Virus record (IMG/VR): IMGVR_UViG_3300023174_000120 | Span: 1 to 64,000 of that record | Length of the DNA stretch: 64,000 nucleotides | Reading direction: 5' to 3' (one strand) | Origin: a virus | Shown here: positions 52,115 to 57,366 of the stretch, piece after piece | How positions within the stretch are numbered: the first letter of the stretch is position 1 | Layout of the letters: every line of letters starts with the position of its first letter | Position numbers and translations under genes: made by a program | Notes under the pieces: generated by a model | The model's input: the letters and a program-made list of their open reading frames with translations, nothing else | Told to the model about the DNA's origin: nothing | Databases searched by the model: none

Positions 52115-53128
52115 ATGGCATTATTTAAAAAAGTCGCGTGTTTCACAGATCTTCATGTCGGTGCTAAATCAAACAGTGTTGTTCATTTGCAAGACTGCGA
52201 AGATTTTGTAGATTGGTTTATTGAACAAGCCCAAGCGGCAGGTTGTGAAACTGCTATCTTCTTGGGCGACTGGAGTCATAATAGAAACAGTATGAATCTA
52301 TATACTCTAGACACCAGTATTAGGTGTTTAGAGAAACTGGGCGCTGCTTTTGAACAGTTTTTCTGGTTTCCGGGCAATCACGACCTGTTTTATAAAGACA
52401 AACGAGACATTCACAGCAGCATATTTGGCAGACATATCCCCGGAGTAACCGTAGTCGACGGTGTTACAACATTAGACGATGTTACTCTAGTACCGTGGCT
52501 AGTAGGCGATGAATGGAAAACCATGCGGAATATTAAGAGCCGCTATGTGTTTGGGCACTTTGAACTGCCTAAATTCTTTATGAACGCTATGGTACAGATG
52601 CCAGACCACGGAGAATTGCGAGCAGAAGACTTTGTCGGACCTGAATATGTGTTCAGTGGCCACTTCCATAAACGACAAACCAACCAAAATGTTGTGTATA
52701 TTGGCAATGCCTTTCCACATAACTTCTCAGATGCATGGGATGACGAGCGCGGAATGATGACAATGGAGTGGGGTGGCCAACCTGAATATAAGACTTGGCC
52801 TGACGCTCCTAAGTTTAGAACTATCAAACTCAGCGAACTAATCGATCGCAAGGACGAAATCATGCTGAGTAAAATGTATCTGCGTGTTAATCTAGACATT
52901 GATATCAGTTTTGAAGAAGCCAACTACATCAAAGAAACCTTTATTAAAGATTATGACATCAGAGAAATTGGTCTAGTCCAAGATAAAAGCAATTTAGAAG
53001 GCAGTTACGAAGACACACCCGATACTAAATTTGAAAGTATTGACACTATTGTTGCTGAACAACTGGTCAATATTGACAGCGGCCAATTTGATAAAAAAAT
53101 CCTAATGGATATCTACAACGACCTATGA
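52115..53128 (+). CDS. gp47: recombination nuclease subunit (gp47/Mre11/SbcD-like)
   Basis: TDLH, LGD, GNHD, GHF and SGHFH metallophosphoesterase motifs. Confidence 0.93.
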   Translation: MALFKKVACFTDLHVGAKSNSVVHLQDCEDFVDWFIEQAQAAGCETAIFLGDWSHNRNSMNLYTLDTSIRCLEKLGAAFEQFFWFPGNHDLFYKDKRDIHSSIFGRHIPGVTVVDGVTTLDDVTLVPWLVGDEWKTMRNIKSRYVFGHFELPKFFMNAMVQMPDHGELRAEDFVGPEYVFSGHFHKRQTNQNVVYIGNAFPHNFSDAWDDERGMMTMEWGGQPEYKTWPDAPKFRTIKLSELIDRKDEIMLSKMYLRVNLDIDISFEEANYIKETFIKDYDIREIGLVQDKSNLEGSYEDTPDTKFESIDTIVAEQLVNIDSGQFDKKILMDIYNDL

Positions 53129-54915
53129 GCCAATTCCGCATTAAAAACTTAACCGTAAAGAATTTTATGAGCGTGGGTAATCAAACCCAGGCAGTAAACT
53201 TTGATCAAGAATCACTCACACTGGTGCTAGGCAGCAACTTAGACTTAGGTGGGGACGATACCGGATCACGCAACGGTACTGGTAAAACTACAATCATTAA
53301 CGCTCTCAGTTATGCCCTGTACGGACAAGCACTGACTAACATTCGTAAAGAAAACCTAATCAACAAGATCAACGGTAAGAACATGTTGGTTACTGTAGAA
53401 TTTGAAAAAAATGGACTAAACTATCGCATTGAACGAGGTCGTAAACCTAATTTGCTGAGATTATACGTAGATGACCGAGAGATCAGTATGGATAATCAAG
53501 GTGAAGATGAAAGCCAAGGCGACAGTAGAGAAACACAAAAGTCTATTGAACAGATGTTAGACATGACTCATACCATGTTCAAGCATCTGGTTGCGCTGAA
53601 TACCTATACAGAACCATTCTTGGCCATGCGAGCCGCTGACCAAAGAGAAGTAATTGAGCAGTTGTTGGGCATTACATTGCTCAGTGAAAAGGCAGAACTG
53701 CTAAAAACTCGTGTCAAAGAAACTAAAGATTTAATCAGTGCCGAACAATTTCGCATCGAAGCAATTAAATCTGCCAACGAGAATGTTCAGAAAAGCATTG
53801 ACAGTTTAGGAATTAAGAGTTCTGCGTGGGAAAAAAAGAAGAATGAAGAAATAGAAAGACTGGGTGCTGCCATTGTTAGTCTTGAATCGGTAGATATCGA
53901 TGCCGAATTACTGCTTCATGCTACATTAAAGCAGTGGTTAGAAAACTCTAACAGGATTAGAGACCTAAATAAACAAAAGGCTACCTACGAAACCGCAGTG
54001 ACACAGGCTGAAAAAGCAGTTGATAGGTATCGTAAGGCACTAGAATCATTGCTGGATAAAAAATGTCCTGCTTGCGAACAGAATATTCACGATCACAAGC
54101 ACGAAGAAATGACCACAACAGCAACTAAAAATTTAGAAGATGCTGTAGTATATCTTGACACTTGCCAAACCAACTATGATAATGTTCTGCAAGAGTTATC
54201 GGATATAGGCGAGCAAGGACGCAGACCTGAACCTTTCTATGACACCGAAGCAGAAGCACTAGGGCATAAGAACAATTTAGACCAATTGACCAAGTCCTTA
54301 GAGGGCAAGGTATTAGAAATTAATCCCTACGACGAGCAGATCGAAGAATTAAAGAACACCGCTATCCAAGAAATATCTTGGGATACCATTAACGAACTCA
54401 CTAGATTAAAGGATCACCAAGAGTTCCTGCATAAACTGTTAACCAATAAAGATAGCTTCATACGAAAACGTATTATTGATCAGAATTTGTCCTATCTCAA
54501 CAAGCGATTAAGTTATTATATTGATAAACTTGGTCTACCACATACAGTTATATTTCAAAATGACCTCACTGTGGAAATCACGCAGTTAGGACAGGACTTG
54601 GATTTTGATAATTTGTCGCGTGGAGAACGCAATAGATTGATTCTCAGCATGAGTTTTGCCTTCCGCGATGTGTGGGAAGGACTATATCAGCATATCAATC
54701 TGCTGTTTATCGACGAATTAGTTGATGCCGGTATGGACTCAGCAGGGGTAGAAAGTGCCCTGGCGGTTCTAAAAAAGATGGCCAGGGAACGAAATAAGAA
54801 TATATACTTGATCAGTCATAAGGATGAATTGATCGGACGTGTGAATAACGTGCTCAGAGTAATCAAAGAAAATGGATTTACTTCTTATTCCAACAGTTTA
54901 GATTATGTCAACTGA
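53125..54915 (+). CDS. gp46: recombination ATPase subunit (gp46/Rad50/SbcC-like)
   Basis: KNFMS, NGTGKTT, zinc hook CPAC, LSRGE, LFIDE and ISH. Confidence 0.95.
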   Translation: MSQFRIKNLTVKNFMSVGNQTQAVNFDQESLTLVLGSNLDLGGDDTGSRNGTGKTTIINALSYALYGQALTNIRKENLINKINGKNMLVTVEFEKNGLNYRIERGRKPNLLRLYVDDREISMDNQGEDESQGDSRETQKSIEQMLDMTHTMFKHLVALNTYTEPFLAMRAADQREVIEQLLGITLLSEKAELLKTRVKETKDLISAEQFRIEAIKSANENVQKSIDSLGIKSSAWEKKKNEEIERLGAAIVSLESVDIDAELLLHATLKQWLENSNRIRDLNKQKATYETAVTQAEKAVDRYRKALESLLDKKCPACEQNIHDHKHEEMTTTATKNLEDAVVYLDTCQTNYDNVLQELSDIGEQGRRPEPFYDTEAEALGHKNNLDQLTKSLEGKVLEINPYDEQIEELKNTAIQEISWDTINELTRLKDHQEFLHKLLTNKDSFIRKRIIDQNLSYLNKRLSYYIDKLGLPHTVIFQNDLTVEITQLGQDLDFDNLSRGERNRLILSMSFAFRDVWEGLYQHINLLFIDELVDAGMDSAGVESALAVLKKMARERNKNIYLISHKDELIGRVNNVLRVIKENGFTSYSNSLDYVN

Positions 54916-55219
54916 GAAAATTGATCGATATAGAGTTCTGTACTCAGAATATGTAAAGCACTTTGTAACTTTGCATAACTATCATAACGTGTTTATGGAG
55001 AATCGGGGTAAAGATTCTACTGCTCAAGTTAGAACCAGTTTGTATTCAATGATCAAACTTGAAAGAGAAATGGCTCAGTTGGCATTAGAGTGCTTTAAAG
55101 AAAATCAAGAAAACACTAAAGCTCAAAGACAACGTCTCAAAGAGATGAGAGCGAAAGCAAAACCCAGGATCAAACCTGGAGGAAGACCAAAAGGAAGAAA
55201 AAATGGAATCGACAGTTGA
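54905..55219 (+). CDS. hypothetical basic protein
   Basis: Helical, with a C-terminal GRPK (AT-hook-like) tail. Confidence 0.6.
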   Translation: MSTEKIDRYRVLYSEYVKHFVTLHNYHNVFMENRGKDSTAQVRTSLYSMIKLEREMAQLALECFKENQENTKAQRQRLKEMRAKAKPRIKPGGRPKGRKNGIDS

Positions 55220-55400
55220 AAATCTACAGACAGCATTTGATGAGTTTCTCAAAGAAGATGCTAAATTCGCCGGCGGTAACGCTGCTGCTGGCACCCGTGC
55301 TCGTAAGGCATTAGCAGAGATTGGCAAGTTGGTTAAGGCTCGCCGCAATGAGATCACTGCTGAAAAGAACGCTCGTAAAGAGGCCAAGGCAGCAGCATAA
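55203..55400 (+). CDS. histone H1-like Hc1 family DNA-binding protein
   Basis: GNAAAGTRARKAL...KARRNEI signature. Confidence 0.75.
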   Translation: MESTVENLQTAFDEFLKEDAKFAGGNAAAGTRARKALAEIGKLVKARRNEITAEKNARKEAKAAA

Positions 55401-55403
55401 TCA

Positions 55404-55829
55404 ATGACCTGGACCTATCAAGGTACAGTCGTTGAAGAACTTCCAGAAACCTGTGTAGGATTCGTATATCTAATTACGAATTCTATCACAGGCAGGAAAT
55501 ATATTGGCAAAAAATTAGCAAAGTTTAGCAAAACCACATACAAAACAGTAAAACTAAAGAACGGCAACAAAAAGCGAAAGCGTATTAAGGGCAAAATAGA
55601 ATCAGATTGGAAAACTTATTACGGAAGTAATACAGAATTAAATCAAGATGTGGCAAACTTAGGCATTGAAAACTTCACAAGAGAAATACTATACTATTGT
55701 AATAGCAAAGCAGAATGCAGTTACATTGAGGCACGAGAGCAGTTTGAACGTAAAGTTTTAGAAAGTAGAGATTTCTACAATGGTCAAATTGCTGTAAGAG
55801 TACATGGCTCCCACATACTAAAAAAATAG
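55404..55829 (+). CDS. small GIY-YIG nuclease
   Basis: GFVY-x10-YIGKK, YYGS, FTREIL, the conserved Glu and FYN. Catalytic domain only. Confidence 0.88.
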   Translation: MTWTYQGTVVEELPETCVGFVYLITNSITGRKYIGKKLAKFSKTTYKTVKLKNGNKKRKRIKGKIESDWKTYYGSNTELNQDVANLGIENFTREILYYCNSKAECSYIEAREQFERKVLESRDFYNGQIAVRVHGSHILKK

Positions 55830-55849
55830 GCATATCACGCGGTATTAAG

Positions 55850-56275
55850 GCTTGCACTGGCCAACTTCAAGTGCCCTAAACCTGGACAATCGTATCACAG
55901 GGATGGAAACCTCTTGCCGCTGAGAGTTCTCAATCACTACCCGCAAGGATGTAGACAGCCAAGACCTGCTGTTTGATTGTTAGAAAATATTAAAATAGGC
56001 CAAAAGAAGGGAGAAAAACCCTGGGCATACCAATATGTTAGTGTATATTGTTATGCTGCCGTCATATCGAAGACGGGGCTCGAGGTACCGGATGACCGCC
56101 TCTGCAACGCCCTAACACTAAGTGAACATAAGAACTCGGATAATGTTCAATATTCTTCGCCCTATGCGGGCGAAGTGTGACCAATGAATCTGGATAATAT
56201 TAAATCTTCTTCGAAGAAGACCATATGATATGAGCGCTGTGCGCGAAATATCAAGTGAACGCAGTTCACTTCTCA
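55850..56275 (+). ncRNA. candidate large structured non-coding RNA/DNA element
   Basis: At least 12 stems found by eye, a nested multibranch, a GCAA tetraloop and a 7-bp loop-distal pseudoknot. The strand is inferred. Confidence 0.6.
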
Positions 56276-56278
56276 GTA

Positions 56279-56515
56279 TTAAAAGAAAGGAAGACCTGAT
56301 TCTTTAGTTGTTTCTAAGTTCTCACCAATAATACGACTAATAATATCTCTATTTTCGTAATCTAATTGAAAGGCTTGCTCTATGGTTATAGAACCTCTCA
56401 TGTACCAACACAGTCTAAACAATTCTTTCTTTAATGCTTTTGATTCTTTTTCGTGGCTCTCAACTAGTTTGACAATGTCATCATTGGATAATGTTAAGAG
56501 CCTTGAACGAAAAAA
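56279..56515 (-). CDS. gp51-like chaperone extension reached by -1 frameshift (absent from ORF track)
   Basis: A 78-codon -1 frame opens exactly at T TTT TTC and ends ...LCWYMRGSITIEQAF...ENLETTKESGLPFF*. Confidence 0.75.
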   Translation of the reverse strand, partial: FFRSRLLTLSNDDIVKLVESHEKESKALKKELFRLCWYMRGSITIEQAFQLDYENRDIISRIIGENLETTKESGLPFF

Positions 56516-57366
56516 TTACTATTGTCCATGGTTATAGGTAGCTCATATACAGCAGGGGCACCAGCAAGGATCTGTTCTTCAGTTGAGTGAACTGTTAATG
56601 GTAAGATACCCACGGTCTTTTTATTTTTGTTGATAAGATCCTGAATCTTTTGTATAAGACCTGCGTCTGCATTTTGAATAAATTCTCTAATGAAGTTGCG
56701 ATCTTCTACAAAATTATCAGGTGTCTTTATATAGAATACGCTTTCTGCAATCATTTCTACTGTGAGATCGGTTAATTTAGAGATACCCTGATTGAAAAGT
56801 TCTAATTTTTGTTCATCTGTTAGATCAGAACTAGCAACAGACTGAATGGTTTTTTGTGATTCAAATGTTCTAATACTAACATCAGTCATGTGTCTATAGG
56901 ACAAAGGTTTTACACCACAGATAATATCCGGACTAATTTCCACACTGTCAATCCACTGTGTTGTGGATAAAATTTGATCCATTACGGCAGTTAAATCAAT
57001 TTGATGGTCAACCGTTTCATCCGTTCCTGGGACCTGATGAGAAATAGTCATTGTACCGCCATAGGTAGCAATTCTAATGGCAATTAGTATAAGGTCAACA
57101 TCTATTCCTGAACACCTCCACGCATTTTTAATATTGGGCATACAACTTTGAATAACATCGACAATTGCTTGCCCATTCATTAATGCGTCTGGAGTTTTAA
57201 AAGTTAACTCATCTTTGGCTGTCATAGAATATACTGGAAATTCATTGTTCTCCGGTATATCAATGCTGCCTTCCTCCCAAAAGAGACCATTACTTGGCAA
57301 TCTAATATAGATTTTTGGTTGCCTCATGTAGCCAAGTAAAGGGTTTACTTTTGATTGAATCGTCAT
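56494..57366 (-). CDS. baseplate hub/tail assembly chaperone (gp26-like)
   Basis: IRLPS.G, MTAKDEL, D.DLILIAIRIATYG and a C-terminal NFF. Confidence 0.75.
   Translation of the reverse strand: MTIQSKVNPLLGYMRQPKIYIRLPSNGLFWEEGSIDIPENNEFPVYSMTAKDELTFKTPDALMNGQAIVDVIQSCMPNIKNAWRCSGIDVDLILIAIRIATYGGTMTISHQVPGTDETVDHQIDLTAVMDQILSTTQWIDSVEISPDIICGVKPLSYRHMTDVSIRTFESQKTIQSVASSDLTDEQKLELFNQGISKLTDLTVEMIAESVFYIKTPDNFVEDRNFIREFIQNADAGLIQKIQDLINKNKKTVGILPLTVHSTEEQILAGAPAVYELPITMDNSNFFVQGS

What the first reader, a model, noticed from the sequence alone, without database searches (positions are those of the whole stretch)
55404..56275. Minimal GIY-YIG nuclease followed by a ~430-nt densely folded, pseudoknotted element
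Seen: the largest non-coding gap in the window is almost fully paired. Stems: GCACT/AGTGC (55854/55870), CCTG/CAGG, CTCT/AGAG, a multibranch CAATCA/TGATTG (55931/55974) enclosing CTAC-CC-GCAA-GG-GTAG and ACAGC/GCTGT, and AGGG/CCCT. GCATA-CAATAT/ATATTG-TATGC has a loop TTAGTGT (56038-44) complementary to ACACTAA (56115-21). Further stems are CCGTC/GACGG, GAGG/CCTC, TGAACAT/ATGTTCA, CTTCGCCC/GGGCGAAG and AAGTGAAC/GTTCACTT. I saw no tRNA, tmRNA, RNase P or group I/II intron hallmark. The nuclease has only a catalytic domain plus a Lys/Arg-rich insert (KLKNGNKKRKRIKGK). Inference: an unrecognised large ncRNA, possibly forming a ribonucleoprotein with the nuclease, or else a ribozyme or a structured replication/packaging signal.
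Basis: partly seen in the sequence, partly recalled or inferred. Interest (0 to 1): 0.85.

Follow-up and report, generated by a model that had tools for sequence, protein, structure and literature searches.

The report
Extended Polynucleobacter-1 twin-box phage RNA
The gene-free stretch behind a small nuclease gene of this uncultured giant T4-like lake phage encodes a real, doubly knotted RNA of about 430 bases; only its first third is catalogued (the orphan Polynucleobacter-1 motif), the rest shows one 7-letter word twice, and its job is still unknown.

Summary
Window 55839-56271 (+) is a conserved, structured non-coding RNA. On 46 distinct relatives, 102 proposed pairs are 91.3% paired and 62 show compensatory changes. 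Both pseudoknots covary. It is not wholly unrecognised: 55849-55982 matches Rfam RF01718 (Polynucleobacter-1) at 106 bits. The remaining ~290 nt match no Rfam family.

That 3' part carries two identical 7-nt words, GGATAAT at 56138 and 56192. They are identical in 46 of 46 relatives and changed together at least 11 times. I found no complementary partner.

Contigs from four metatranscriptome studies lie on the RNA.

The SegE-type GIY-YIG gene looks like a fixed neighbour, not a shown partner:
- 64 of 67 relatives' loci gave an nhmmer match to the RNA downstream of the gene; the other 3 hold a divergent twin-word form.
- The RNA also sits behind a PD-(D/E)XK gene, and in bacterial islands without any such nuclease.
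- 0 of 5 cultured phages examined that have the nuclease carry the RNA.

Function is unknown. My best guess is a stand-alone trans-acting RNA that displays two identical specificity loops. This scan has already reported the same RNA family on other genomes.

The parts
55404..55829 (+). SegE-type GIY-YIG nuclease gene, 141 aa. A fixed neighbour of the RNA in this phage group, not a shown partner.
   Evidence: PF19835 E 3.1e-33, residues 3-129 against profile 1-123/123. phrog_447 E 1.9e-37. At least 597 viral contigs encode relatives.
55839..56271 (+). Full-length structured RNA, about 433 nt. The ends are inferred from the outermost covarying pairs.
   Evidence: RNA-library contigs begin at 55842 (X1, 0 differences) and 55844 (X2).
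55849..55982 (+). 5' domain, matching Rfam RF01718 (Polynucleobacter-1 RNA).
   Evidence: 106.2 bits against a gathering score of 37, model positions 1-141 of 141.
55839..55843 (+). 5' strand of pseudoknot A. It pairs with 55916-55920, the loop of the CUCU/AGAG hairpin, and lies upstream of the Rfam model's start.
   Evidence: 99.0% paired. AU:18 GC:9 UA:1 at one pair and GC:39 AU:6 at another. Island forms have UACCG/CGGUA and UACUG/CAGUA at the same places, read by eye.
55916..55920 (+). 3' strand of pseudoknot A.
   Evidence: helix 1.
55998..56113 (+). Central domain. GGC/GCC (invariant) encloses AGGG/CCCT and the long hairpin 56025-56056. Then comes GGGGC/GCCCU, which encloses the GAGGU..GG/CC..GCCUC hairpin.
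   Evidence: helices 8-11 and 13-15. Helices 9, 10, 11, 13 and 14 have compensatory changes.
56038..56044 (+). Hairpin loop UUAGUGU, the 5' strand of pseudoknot B.
   Evidence: Pairs with 56115-56121. 99.4% paired, 6 of 7 pairs change on both sides (helix 12).
56115..56121 (+). ACACUAA, the 3' strand of pseudoknot B.
   Evidence: helix 12.
56138..56144 (+). Twin box 1, GGAUAAU, following AACUC. It lies on the 3' side of the loop of a hairpin whose stem sequence changes between relatives.
56155..56175 (+). Hairpin CUUCGCCC/GGGCGAAG between the two boxes.
   Evidence: 95.4% paired, 3 pairs compensatory (helix 16).
56192..56198 (+). Twin box 2, GGAUAAU, following AAUCU.
   Evidence: Identical to box 1 in 46 of 46 distinct relatives. 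7 words, at least 11 joint changes on the tree. Mean unpaired probability 0.58 against 0.41 for the whole RNA.
56206..56271 (+). Three 3' hairpins: 56206-56219 (variable, often with a UUCG loop in relatives), 56227-56252 (with the conserved GAGCG..GCGAA), and 56253-56271 (AAGUGAAC/GUUCACUU).
   Evidence: helices 17-21. Helices 18 and 19 are 91-94% paired with compensatory changes. Helices 17 and 21 score low in the MAFFT register because loop lengths shift, though compensatory variants are visible.

Best explanation
Window 55839-56271 (+) is a gene for a stand-alone, stable, highly structured non-coding RNA carried by mobile elements. The carriers are giant T4-like lake phages and, rarely, integrative islands of bacteria.

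Shown:
- The fold has two pseudoknots.
- The sequence is present in RNA libraries.
- The architecture is modular. The 5' domain is exchangeable; here it is the catalogued Polynucleobacter-1 motif. The 3' core is conserved.
- The core holds two similar modules. Each presents the same 7-nt word (pattern R-S-A-Y-R-A-W, here GGAUAAU) just after a conserved ..CUC / ..UCU flank, on the 3' side of a hairpin loop.
- The two words stay identical while changing repeatedly between relatives.
- No complementary column exists in the RNA, its flanks or the phage genomes I could read.

Inferred:
- The RNA acts in trans, and the two words are twin specificity elements read by one and the same outside partner.
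- That partner is most likely a nucleic acid bound by loop pairing at two equivalent sites, or a symmetric reader.
- The RNA would thus work as a bivalent adaptor, decoy or sponge, not as a cis-regulator or a guide for the neighbouring nuclease.
- The GIY-YIG gene would be a neighbour that is co-transcribed or simply parked next to a conserved RNA gene. Homing-type nuclease genes and integrases often sit beside such genes (established knowledge, recalled).
For: Structure: 91.3% of cells paired versus 80.5% in shuffles; 62 of 102 pairs compensatory; 0 of 500 shuffles reach the score. RNAalifold found 37 of 92 pairs compensatory on a smaller set.

Strand: the Rfam match is on +. Invariant G-U pairs (UG:45, GU:46, UG:46) would be A-C mismatches on the other strand.

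Expression hint: RNA-library contigs of 4 studies lie on the element. One is 165 nt with 0 differences, at 55842-56006. None of the listed pieces runs from the RNA into a flanking gene.

Twin words: identical in 46 of 46 relatives, 7 words, at least 11 joint changes on a tree built without the box columns. In a second set, 63 of 67 loci showed identical twin words by one regular expression, with further words ACATGAA and AGACGAA. Island forms carry ATCGAAAT twice and ATGAAAG twice. For every variable box position the twin column is the top mutual-information partner. The only equally scoring columns, at position 2, changed in one single clade and none is complementary.

Independence from the nuclease.

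Not a leader of the next gene: the window and L019 keep the RNA but lack the downstream gene. In 36 of 44 relatives with enough tail, the word ATAAATA lies between the last hairpin and the next gene. That this word is T4's late-promoter core is recalled.
Against: - No partner was found, so 'trans-acting' and 'bivalent reader' remain inference.
- Contigs cannot show the strand, the ends or the level of an RNA, and DNA can be present in RNA libraries.
- Box 1 is not predicted to be exposed by single-sequence thermodynamics: mean unpaired probability is 0.34 against 0.41 for the whole RNA. In some clades it can pair with the spacer upstream of it.
- The 3' part folds even better on the minus strand (z -4.8).
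- The very tight linkage to the nuclease gene within this phage group is also what a functional pair would show.
Confidence: 0.55

Rival explanations
1. Nuclease-RNA system. The RNA is the targeting or scaffolding subunit of the minimal GIY-YIG enzyme, and the twin words read a DNA or RNA target for it.
For: The nuclease is a catalytic domain only. 64 of 67 loci with enough sequence have the RNA downstream by nhmmer, and the other 3 hold a divergent twin-word form. Among pattern-found loci, 57 of 69 have the gene directly upstream on the same strand. Where the GIY-YIG gene is missing, another small DNA enzyme lies beside the RNA: a PD-(D/E)XK gene of 171 aa in L012, and a 194-198 aa protein made only of the tyrosine-recombinase catalytic domain in the islands.
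Against: The RNA occurs without any GIY-YIG gene in 7 loci that have at least 450 nt upstream. A 337-aa ORF separates gene and RNA in L101, and 7-8 loci have such a gap. The nuclease family is in 217 cultured-phage records, and 0 of 5 examined carry the RNA. There is no long variable guide segment, only 7 nt. No target-like complement of the word lies in +-4 kb or at a concordantly changing place in 8 phage records, 2 of them complete. All linked loci are syntenic relatives, so the linkage is not independent evidence.
Confidence: 0.06
2. Cis-acting element of the surrounding transcripts. It would be a 3' UTR stabiliser or processing platform of the gp47-gp46-nuclease operon, or a leader or riboswitch of the next gene. 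Weinberg et al. 2010 rated the Polynucleobacter-1 motif as probably cis-regulatory.
For: The RNA starts about 10 nt after the stop codon of an upstream + strand gene in the phage loci. I found no convincing sigma-70-like promoter in front of it. Most relatives have a + strand gene downstream. The motif table of PMC2864571 marks the motif 'y' for cis-regulatory and '?' for switch (passages seen).
Against: The window and L019 keep the RNA at 95% identity to each other although no + strand gene follows. The word ATAAATA lies between the RNA and the next gene in 36 of 44 relatives. In the islands the upstream gene is on the other strand, so the RNA needs its own promoter there. The upstream gene is exchangeable: GIY-YIG, PD-(D/E)XK or the 337-aa ORF. 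430 nt with two pseudoknots and co-changing twin words is far more than a stabiliser needs (inference).
Confidence: 0.15
3. DNA-level signal: a replication origin, a packaging site or an ssDNA hairpin cluster, possibly with the transcript acting as an R-loop primer.
For: The 3' part folds at least as well on the minus strand (z -4.8 against -3.4). The 3' hairpins have GNA-type triloops and no U tract. The element lies between convergent gene blocks in the window.
Against: Invariant and frequent G-U pairs are strand-specific. The pseudoknots and long-range pairs covary as expected for a single-stranded + strand molecule. The covariance-model match is on +. Sequences of the element are in four RNA libraries. 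The same element lies in bacterial islands.
Confidence: 0.03
4. Decoy or antitoxin-like RNA. The two words would be recognition or cleavage sites for a sequence-specific host or element endoribonuclease. The roughly 54-nt unit between them would mimic a type III antitoxin repeat or a toxin substrate. This is a special case of the best explanation.
For: There are two identical short words at a fixed spacing of 47-57 nt with a hairpin between them. The words change fast, as expected in an arms race. Carriage by phages and by islands that also hold helicase and ATPase genes fits conflict systems. That phages carry antitoxin RNA mimics is recalled, not seen in any call.
Against: No toxin gene is identified. 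Only two units are present, and they differ outside the word. About 350 nt of further conserved structure would be unexplained. Nothing here tests cleavage.
Confidence: 0.1

Closest known systems
Polynucleobacter-1 RNA motif (Rfam RF01718; Weinberg et al. 2010, Genome Biol 11:R31, PMC2864571; I saw the search listing and the passages of its motif table)
   Same: Window 55849-55982 matches the whole 141-position model at 106.2 bits. The habitat also fits: the paper's table gives 'Burkholderiales, fresh water/estuary', and three of the four RNA runs are labelled lake water.
   Different: The catalogued motif is only the first third of the RNA. One helix (pseudoknot A) starts upstream of the model, and about 290 nt of covarying structure with the twin words follow it. 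By nhmmer, only 30 of 67 related phage RNAs showed this 5' domain. Six of them that I put to Rfam gave no match at all. The 3' core, not the Rfam motif, therefore defines the family. The paper's tentative cis-regulatory rating does not fit this locus.
Large ornate RNAs of phages and prophages (GOLLD, ROOL); comparison recalled, no paper read
   Same: Several hundred nucleotides, multiple pseudoknots, carried by phages and mobile elements, function unknown.
   Different: No Rfam family other than RF01718 matches, even at E<=10. GOLLD and ROOL have no described pair of co-changing identical words (recalled). Whether this RNA multimerises, as has been reported for those RNAs (recalled), is untested.
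Antisense RNAs with short repeated specificity boxes (P1/P7 c4 RNA, P4 CI RNA); mechanism recalled, and c4 is listed in the table of PMC2864571
   Same: Short words that occur more than once, must match each other, and differ between related elements.
   Different: In those systems the complementary boxes lie in the same operon. Here I found no complement in the RNA, in +-4 kb, or at concordant places in 8 phage records. The RNA is also 5-6 times larger.
Guide RNAs of mobile-element nucleases and recombinases (omega-RNA/HEARO with IscB, reRNA with TnpB, IS110 bridge RNA); I saw search listings only
   Same: A large structured RNA encoded directly beside a small DNA-cutting or DNA-joining enzyme gene in a mobile element. 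A bridge RNA also has two specificity loops.
   Different: The neighbouring enzymes are of other families (GIY-YIG, PD-(D/E)XK, tyrosine recombinase). Linkage is not obligatory. There is no long guide. The two words are identical to each other rather than addressing two different DNAs. No target was found.

Membership tests
Rfam RF01718 Polynucleobacter-1 RNA | Covariance-model score at or above the curated gathering score (37 bits) over the whole model | tested here: met
   106.2 bits, E 5.4e-22, model 1-141 of 141, + strand.
Rfam RF01718 Polynucleobacter-1 RNA | The model's helices are kept with compensatory changes in homologues | tested here: met
   Helices 2-7 are 95-100% paired. 15 of their 30 pairs change on both sides.
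Rfam RF01718 Polynucleobacter-1 RNA | Proposed cis-regulatory position in the 5' UTR of a downstream gene (rated 'y' in PMC2864571) | tested here: not met
   No + strand gene follows in the window or in L019. About 290 nt of further RNA, and in 36 of 44 relatives the word ATAAATA, lie before the next gene.
Twin-box RNA family (this scan's working name; not in print in the searches) | Two identical 7-nt words 47-57 nt apart, after ..CUC and ..UCU flanks, with a hairpin between them | tested here: met
   GGATAAT at 56138-56144 and 56192-56198. 46 of 46 relatives have identical words.
Twin-box RNA family | Central pseudoknot: a hairpin loop pairs with the strand just 5' of module 1 | tested here: met
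   56038-56044 with 56115-56121, 99.4% paired, 6 of 7 pairs compensatory.
Group I / group II intron, RNase P RNA, tmRNA, known ribozymes | Match to the Rfam covariance model, or an ARAGORN call | tested here: not met
   No such match at E<=10 in 55700-56500. 0 tRNA or tmRNA genes in the window.
RNA-guided nuclease or recombinase system (OMEGA, bridge-RNA type) | Obligatory co-occurrence of the RNA with one enzyme family | tested here: not met
   The RNA lacks a GIY-YIG gene in 7 loci with enough upstream sequence. The enzyme lacks the RNA in 5 of 5 cultured phages examined.
RNA-guided nuclease or recombinase system (OMEGA, bridge-RNA type) | A guide segment complementary to a target at the element's boundary or elsewhere | tested here: not met
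   No consistently placed complement of the word within +-4 kb. No concordantly changing site in 8 phage records. The single hit is a synonymous codon change.
RNA-guided nuclease or recombinase system (OMEGA, bridge-RNA type) | Physical binding of the RNA and RNA-dependent activity | not testable with these tools
   Needs biochemistry.
SegE-type GIY-YIG nuclease (Pfam PF19835) | Profile match above the curated cut-off | tested here: met
   115.1 bits against a cut-off of 25, E 3.1e-33.
Free-standing homing endonuclease | Sporadic presence or absence among close relatives | tested here: not met
   The gene is upstream in 57 of 69 pattern-found loci. Among the T4-like loci with at least 450 nt upstream, only L012 and L051 lack it. 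At least 597 viral contigs encode relatives (the best 80 are 68-83% identical).

The most novel reading that the evidence does not exclude
The RNA is a programmable specificity subunit shared by interchangeable minimal DNA enzymes: GIY-YIG, PD-(D/E)XK, or a tyrosine recombinase made of the catalytic domain only. Its two always-identical 7-nt words would read the same short word on two DNA partners or two strands, much as recombination partners must share an identical core. That would make this a new kind of RNA-guided DNA cutting or joining in phages and islands.
Probability: 0.04. Interest if true: 0.92.

Novelty: new variant of a known kind. Interest (0 to 1): 0.66.

Why it matters
Large, intricately folded bacterial and phage RNAs are rare, and most have turned out to do unusual biochemistry. 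This one is common. The neighbouring nuclease gene marks at least 597 viral contigs, and nearly every locus I could read beside it carries the RNA.

The public catalogue holds only its first third, and rates that part as a possible cis-regulator.

The two words that stay identical through at least 11 changes give a sharp, testable handle on function: something reads both. It would also correct the Rfam family's boundaries and type.

Tried and rejected
1. Cultured relatives by DNA. blastn of 55830-56300 against 50,697 phage records found no match.

2. A cis partner for the words.
- Mutual information over the 46-row alignment: for every variable box position the twin column is the top partner. 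The only equally scoring columns, at position 2, changed in one single clade and none is complementary.
- Exact complements within +-4 kb of each locus: none at a consistent place.
- Word counts in the 86.7-kb record show no enrichment: 12 and 8 occurrences against medians of 8 and 7 for permuted words.

3. A partner elsewhere in phage genomes. I looked at homologous places of every word or complement site across G000, G001, G002, G003 and G005, and then across G006 (complete, 346,856 bp), G007 (99% complete) and G008. Only the boxes themselves changed concordantly. The one other hit, G006:136390, is a synonymous CAA/CAG change inside an ORF. A partner that pairs through G-U wobble, or one that is host-encoded, would escape this test.

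4. tRNA anticodon loops. The complete relatives have 27-28 tRNA genes. One tRNA-Asp loop in G006 complements its word over 7 nt, but the tRNA-Asp loops of G007 and G008 do not follow their own words. Rejected.

5. Reading the word as 'sense codon plus stop codon' (translational bypass) or as NAY codons. No conserved reading frame enters the boxes, and AGACGAA and the island words do not fit. Dropped as numerology.

6. Helices CCA/UGG (box 2), the long-range GAGU/ACUC proposed by RNAalifold, CTAC/GTAG and CCGTC/GACGG. Together with TGAACAT/ATGTTCA in its MAFFT register, they are 67.9% paired against 68.7% in shuffles.

7. Bacterial distribution. The genome contigs pattern scan gave 4 stretches, of which 1 is real (L027). 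The motif was found in 1 of 151 genomes sampled from that genome's order. I could not reach Polynucleobacter genomes.

8. Expression. All four runs hold only small shares of the sampled words and are kept as contigs, so the strand, the ends and the level are not shown. Parts of the stretch without cover say nothing.

9. Literature. 'Polynucleobacter-1' is held by 1 paper. 'DUF6641' is held by 0 papers. 'GIY-YIG' with 'structured RNA', 'phage' and 'metagenom' is held by 3 papers, none about this RNA judging by title and abstract. The tyrosine recombinase / RNA-guided / structured RNA search listed nothing on such a system (listing only). The supplements of PMC2864571 were not requested and are closed. 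They hold that motif's alignment and gene contexts, which could bear on its 3' boundary.

10. I did not use complex prediction, structure prediction or the large protein searches. No claim here rests on them.
Full report
WHAT IS THERE

The window is part of an 86,662-bp IMG/VR virus record. The genes around the finding are T4-like:
- a gp47/gp46-type nuclease pair at 52115-54915;
- a 65-aa Hc1-type histone-like protein at 55203-55400;
- a 141-aa SegE-type GIY-YIG protein at 55404-55829 (PF19835, E 3.1e-33, residues 3-129 against profile 1-123 of 123);
- on the other strand, a baseplate-hub-like gene at 56494-57366.

Two related records are essentially complete at about 346 kb. One has terminal repeats, and they carry 27-28 tRNA genes. 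The phage is therefore a giant T4-like phage.

The uncatalogued part, 55983-56290, folds far better than shuffles (z -3.4 on the + strand, 0 of 100 shuffles as good).

A pattern taken from the most conserved stretch found 23 viral and 46 metagenome loci. In the viral ones the nuclease gene and the whole gene-free stretch align as one block at about 70-82% identity. Over the gene-free stretch alone, L019 is 95% identical.

I aligned 46 distinct sequences (A2) and wrote a structure of 102 pairs with two pseudoknots. The result:
- 91.3% of cells pair, against 80.5% in shuffles.
- 62 pairs change on both sides.
- The covariation score is 0.328 against 0.140, with 0 of 500 shuffles as high.
- Sliding the partners by 1-3 columns drops the score to 0.056-0.098.

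A second pseudoknot joins 55839-55843, just after the nuclease stop codon, to the loop of the CUCU/AGAG hairpin (55916-55920).

The TGAACAT/ATGTTCA stem fails in the alignment's register. However, a hairpin of changing sequence does form there when each sequence is folded on its own.

IT IS NOT WHOLLY UNRECOGNISED

The only Rfam match in the 64-kb window is RF01718, Polynucleobacter-1 RNA, at 55849-55982 on the + strand. It scores 106.2 bits against a gathering score of 37 and covers the whole model.

The single paper that holds this name lists the motif as a likely RNA, likely cis-regulatory, from Burkholderiales and fresh water or estuary (passages seen).

The remaining ~290 nt match nothing, even at E<=10.

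More importantly, the Rfam motif is not the core of the family. Among 67 loci of close nuclease relatives with enough downstream sequence:
- 30 show this 5' domain;
- 29 match only from the central domain onward;
- 5 match the 5' domain only in part;
- 3 escape nhmmer altogether, yet carry a recognisable divergent form.

Six such loci gave no Rfam match at all.

THE TWIN WORDS

The 3' core holds two similar modules. Each has a conserved GUGA(C) stretch, a spacer, a ..CUC or ..UCU flank and then a 7-nt word. A hairpin lies between the two modules.

In the window both words are GGAUAAU (56138-56144 and 56192-56198). In all 46 distinct relatives the two words are identical to each other. Seven different words occur. 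On a tree built without the box columns the word changed at least 11 times, always in both copies.

Further words, ACATGAA and AGACGAA, appear in more distant forms. Island forms carry ATCGAAAT twice or ATGAAAG twice. The phage words fit the pattern R-S-A-Y-R-A-W.

For every variable box position the strongest mutual-information partner is its twin. The only columns that score as high, at position 2, changed in one single clade and none is complementary.

Each word lies on the 3' side of a hairpin loop. Its last two bases enter a stem and the first five lie in the loop. Thermodynamic folding predicts that box 2 is mostly unpaired (0.58) but box 1 is not (0.34, against 0.41 overall).

- I found no complement at a consistent place within +-4 kb.
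- There is no enrichment of the word or its complement in the record.
- No homologous site changes in step with the word across eight phage records, two of them complete. The single exception is a synonymous codon change.
- The phages' own tRNAs do not explain the words.

A host-encoded partner, a partner that pairs through wobble, or a protein are all still possible.

THE NUCLEASE

Within this phage group the linkage is nearly complete. Of the best 80 loci among at least 597 viral contigs that encode relatives, 67 have at least 450 nt downstream of the gene:
- 56 have the RNA directly behind the gene;
- 8 have it 300-980 nt further on, behind an inserted ORF (337 aa in L101);
- 3 have the divergent form.

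But all these loci are syntenic relatives, so they are not independent evidence. The independent cases point the other way:
- In L012 and L051 no GIY-YIG gene lies upstream. In L012 the upstream gene, which I annotated, is a PD-(D/E)XK gene (PF24608).
- In bacterial island contexts there is no GIY-YIG gene. In the two I annotated (L027 and L055), the RNA lies between a DUF6641 gene on the other strand and a 194-198-aa protein made only of the tyrosine-recombinase catalytic domain.
- The nuclease family is present in 217 cultured-phage records. Beside the five I examined (Melnitz, P-HM1, phiM12, ACP17, S-SRM01) there is no such RNA.
- In bacteria the motif is sporadic: 1 of 151 genomes sampled from one order.

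I therefore read the nuclease as a fixed neighbour. Three different minimal DNA enzymes sit beside the same RNA, and that fact keeps the bolder reading alive at a few per cent.

EXPRESSION AND STRAND

Contigs from four metatranscriptome studies lie on the element:
- a 165-nt contig identical to 55842-56006;
- contigs of relatives over 55844-56094, 55875-56091 and 55997-56122.

Two contigs begin within three bases of each other, near the inferred 5' end. That is only a weak hint, because contigs show neither strand nor true ends, and DNA can contaminate RNA libraries.

The + strand is supported by the covariance-model match and by invariant G-U pairs.

In 36 of 44 relatives with enough tail, the word ATAAATA lies within 60 nt of the start of the last hairpin's 3' strand, ahead of a low-complexity protein gene. 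This word is the core of T4's late promoter as I recall it. The window and L019 lack that gene but keep the RNA. That argues against a leader function.

VERDICT

This is a real, probably expressed, about 433-nt doubly pseudoknotted RNA. It is a full-length member of a family of which only the first third is catalogued.

Its function is unknown. The most likely mechanism is a stand-alone trans-acting RNA that offers two identical specificity loops to one outside reader.

This scan has reported the same family many times on other genomes under the name 'twin-box' RNA. I saw the repeated word in the sequences before reading those notes. I have adopted their name and their 'neighbour, not partner' reading, and I tested both here.

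Noticed in passing
L008:6429-7346 (-), L024:2690-3691 (+), L002:8713-9648 (-) and others; absent from the window: In most relatives the RNA is followed by a 189-334-aa Ala/Pro/Gly/Thr-rich low-complexity protein. In most of the 11 printed sequences the N-terminus reads like MKIxELxxE. In 6 of the 11 the C-terminus reads like S(R/N)FLG(M/R). It has no Pfam or PHROG match. The N-terminus resembles T4's capsid-targeting and prohead-protease cleavage motif (recalled), so it may be an internal head protein.
   Followed up: partly
window 55203-55400 (+): A 65-aa protein matches the chlamydial histone H1-like Hc1 family (PF07432, E 2.5e-13). This is unusual for a T4-like phage. It is conserved at this place in many relatives as a 64-65-aa ORF.
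   Followed up: no
window 55404-55829; RefSeq phage records: This minimal GIY-YIG family (phrog_447) carries the label 'NAD synthetase' in PHROGs and in many RefSeq phage annotations. Pfam and the conserved-domain note in phiM12 show a Seg-type GIY-YIG domain. The label looks like a propagated misannotation.
   Followed up: partly
L101:1940-2953 (+); a similar gap in L111, L113, L116, L132, L142, L168: In L101 a 337-aa ORF with no Pfam or PHROG match lies between the nuclease gene and the RNA. Six further loci have a gap of 780-980 nt at the same place. I read the ORF only in L101.
   Followed up: partly
G006 (L173-L190) 105915-105989: The phage tRNA-Asp(GTC) of this complete 346,856-bp relative has T at position 37 of its anticodon loop (TT[GTC]TA), where tRNAs normally carry a purine (the rule is recalled).
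   Followed up: no
L055:81-14670; L039:52-124: The island that carries the RNA also holds a UvrD-type helicase (910 aa), a full-length integrase (423 aa), an AAA ATPase, and a katG-like peroxidase at its edge. A related island contig has a tRNA gene near one end.
   Followed up: no
window 56279-56422 (-) and the homologous tails of L019, L051, L053, L034, L069: Right after the RNA, in the loci that lack the downstream + strand gene, there is a conserved stretch of the form AAAAGAA(A/T)GG....CCTGA.TTCTT.G. It overlaps the end of a small minus-strand ORF ahead of the baseplate-hub gene. First-stage notes propose a frameshift there. I did not examine it.
   Followed up: no
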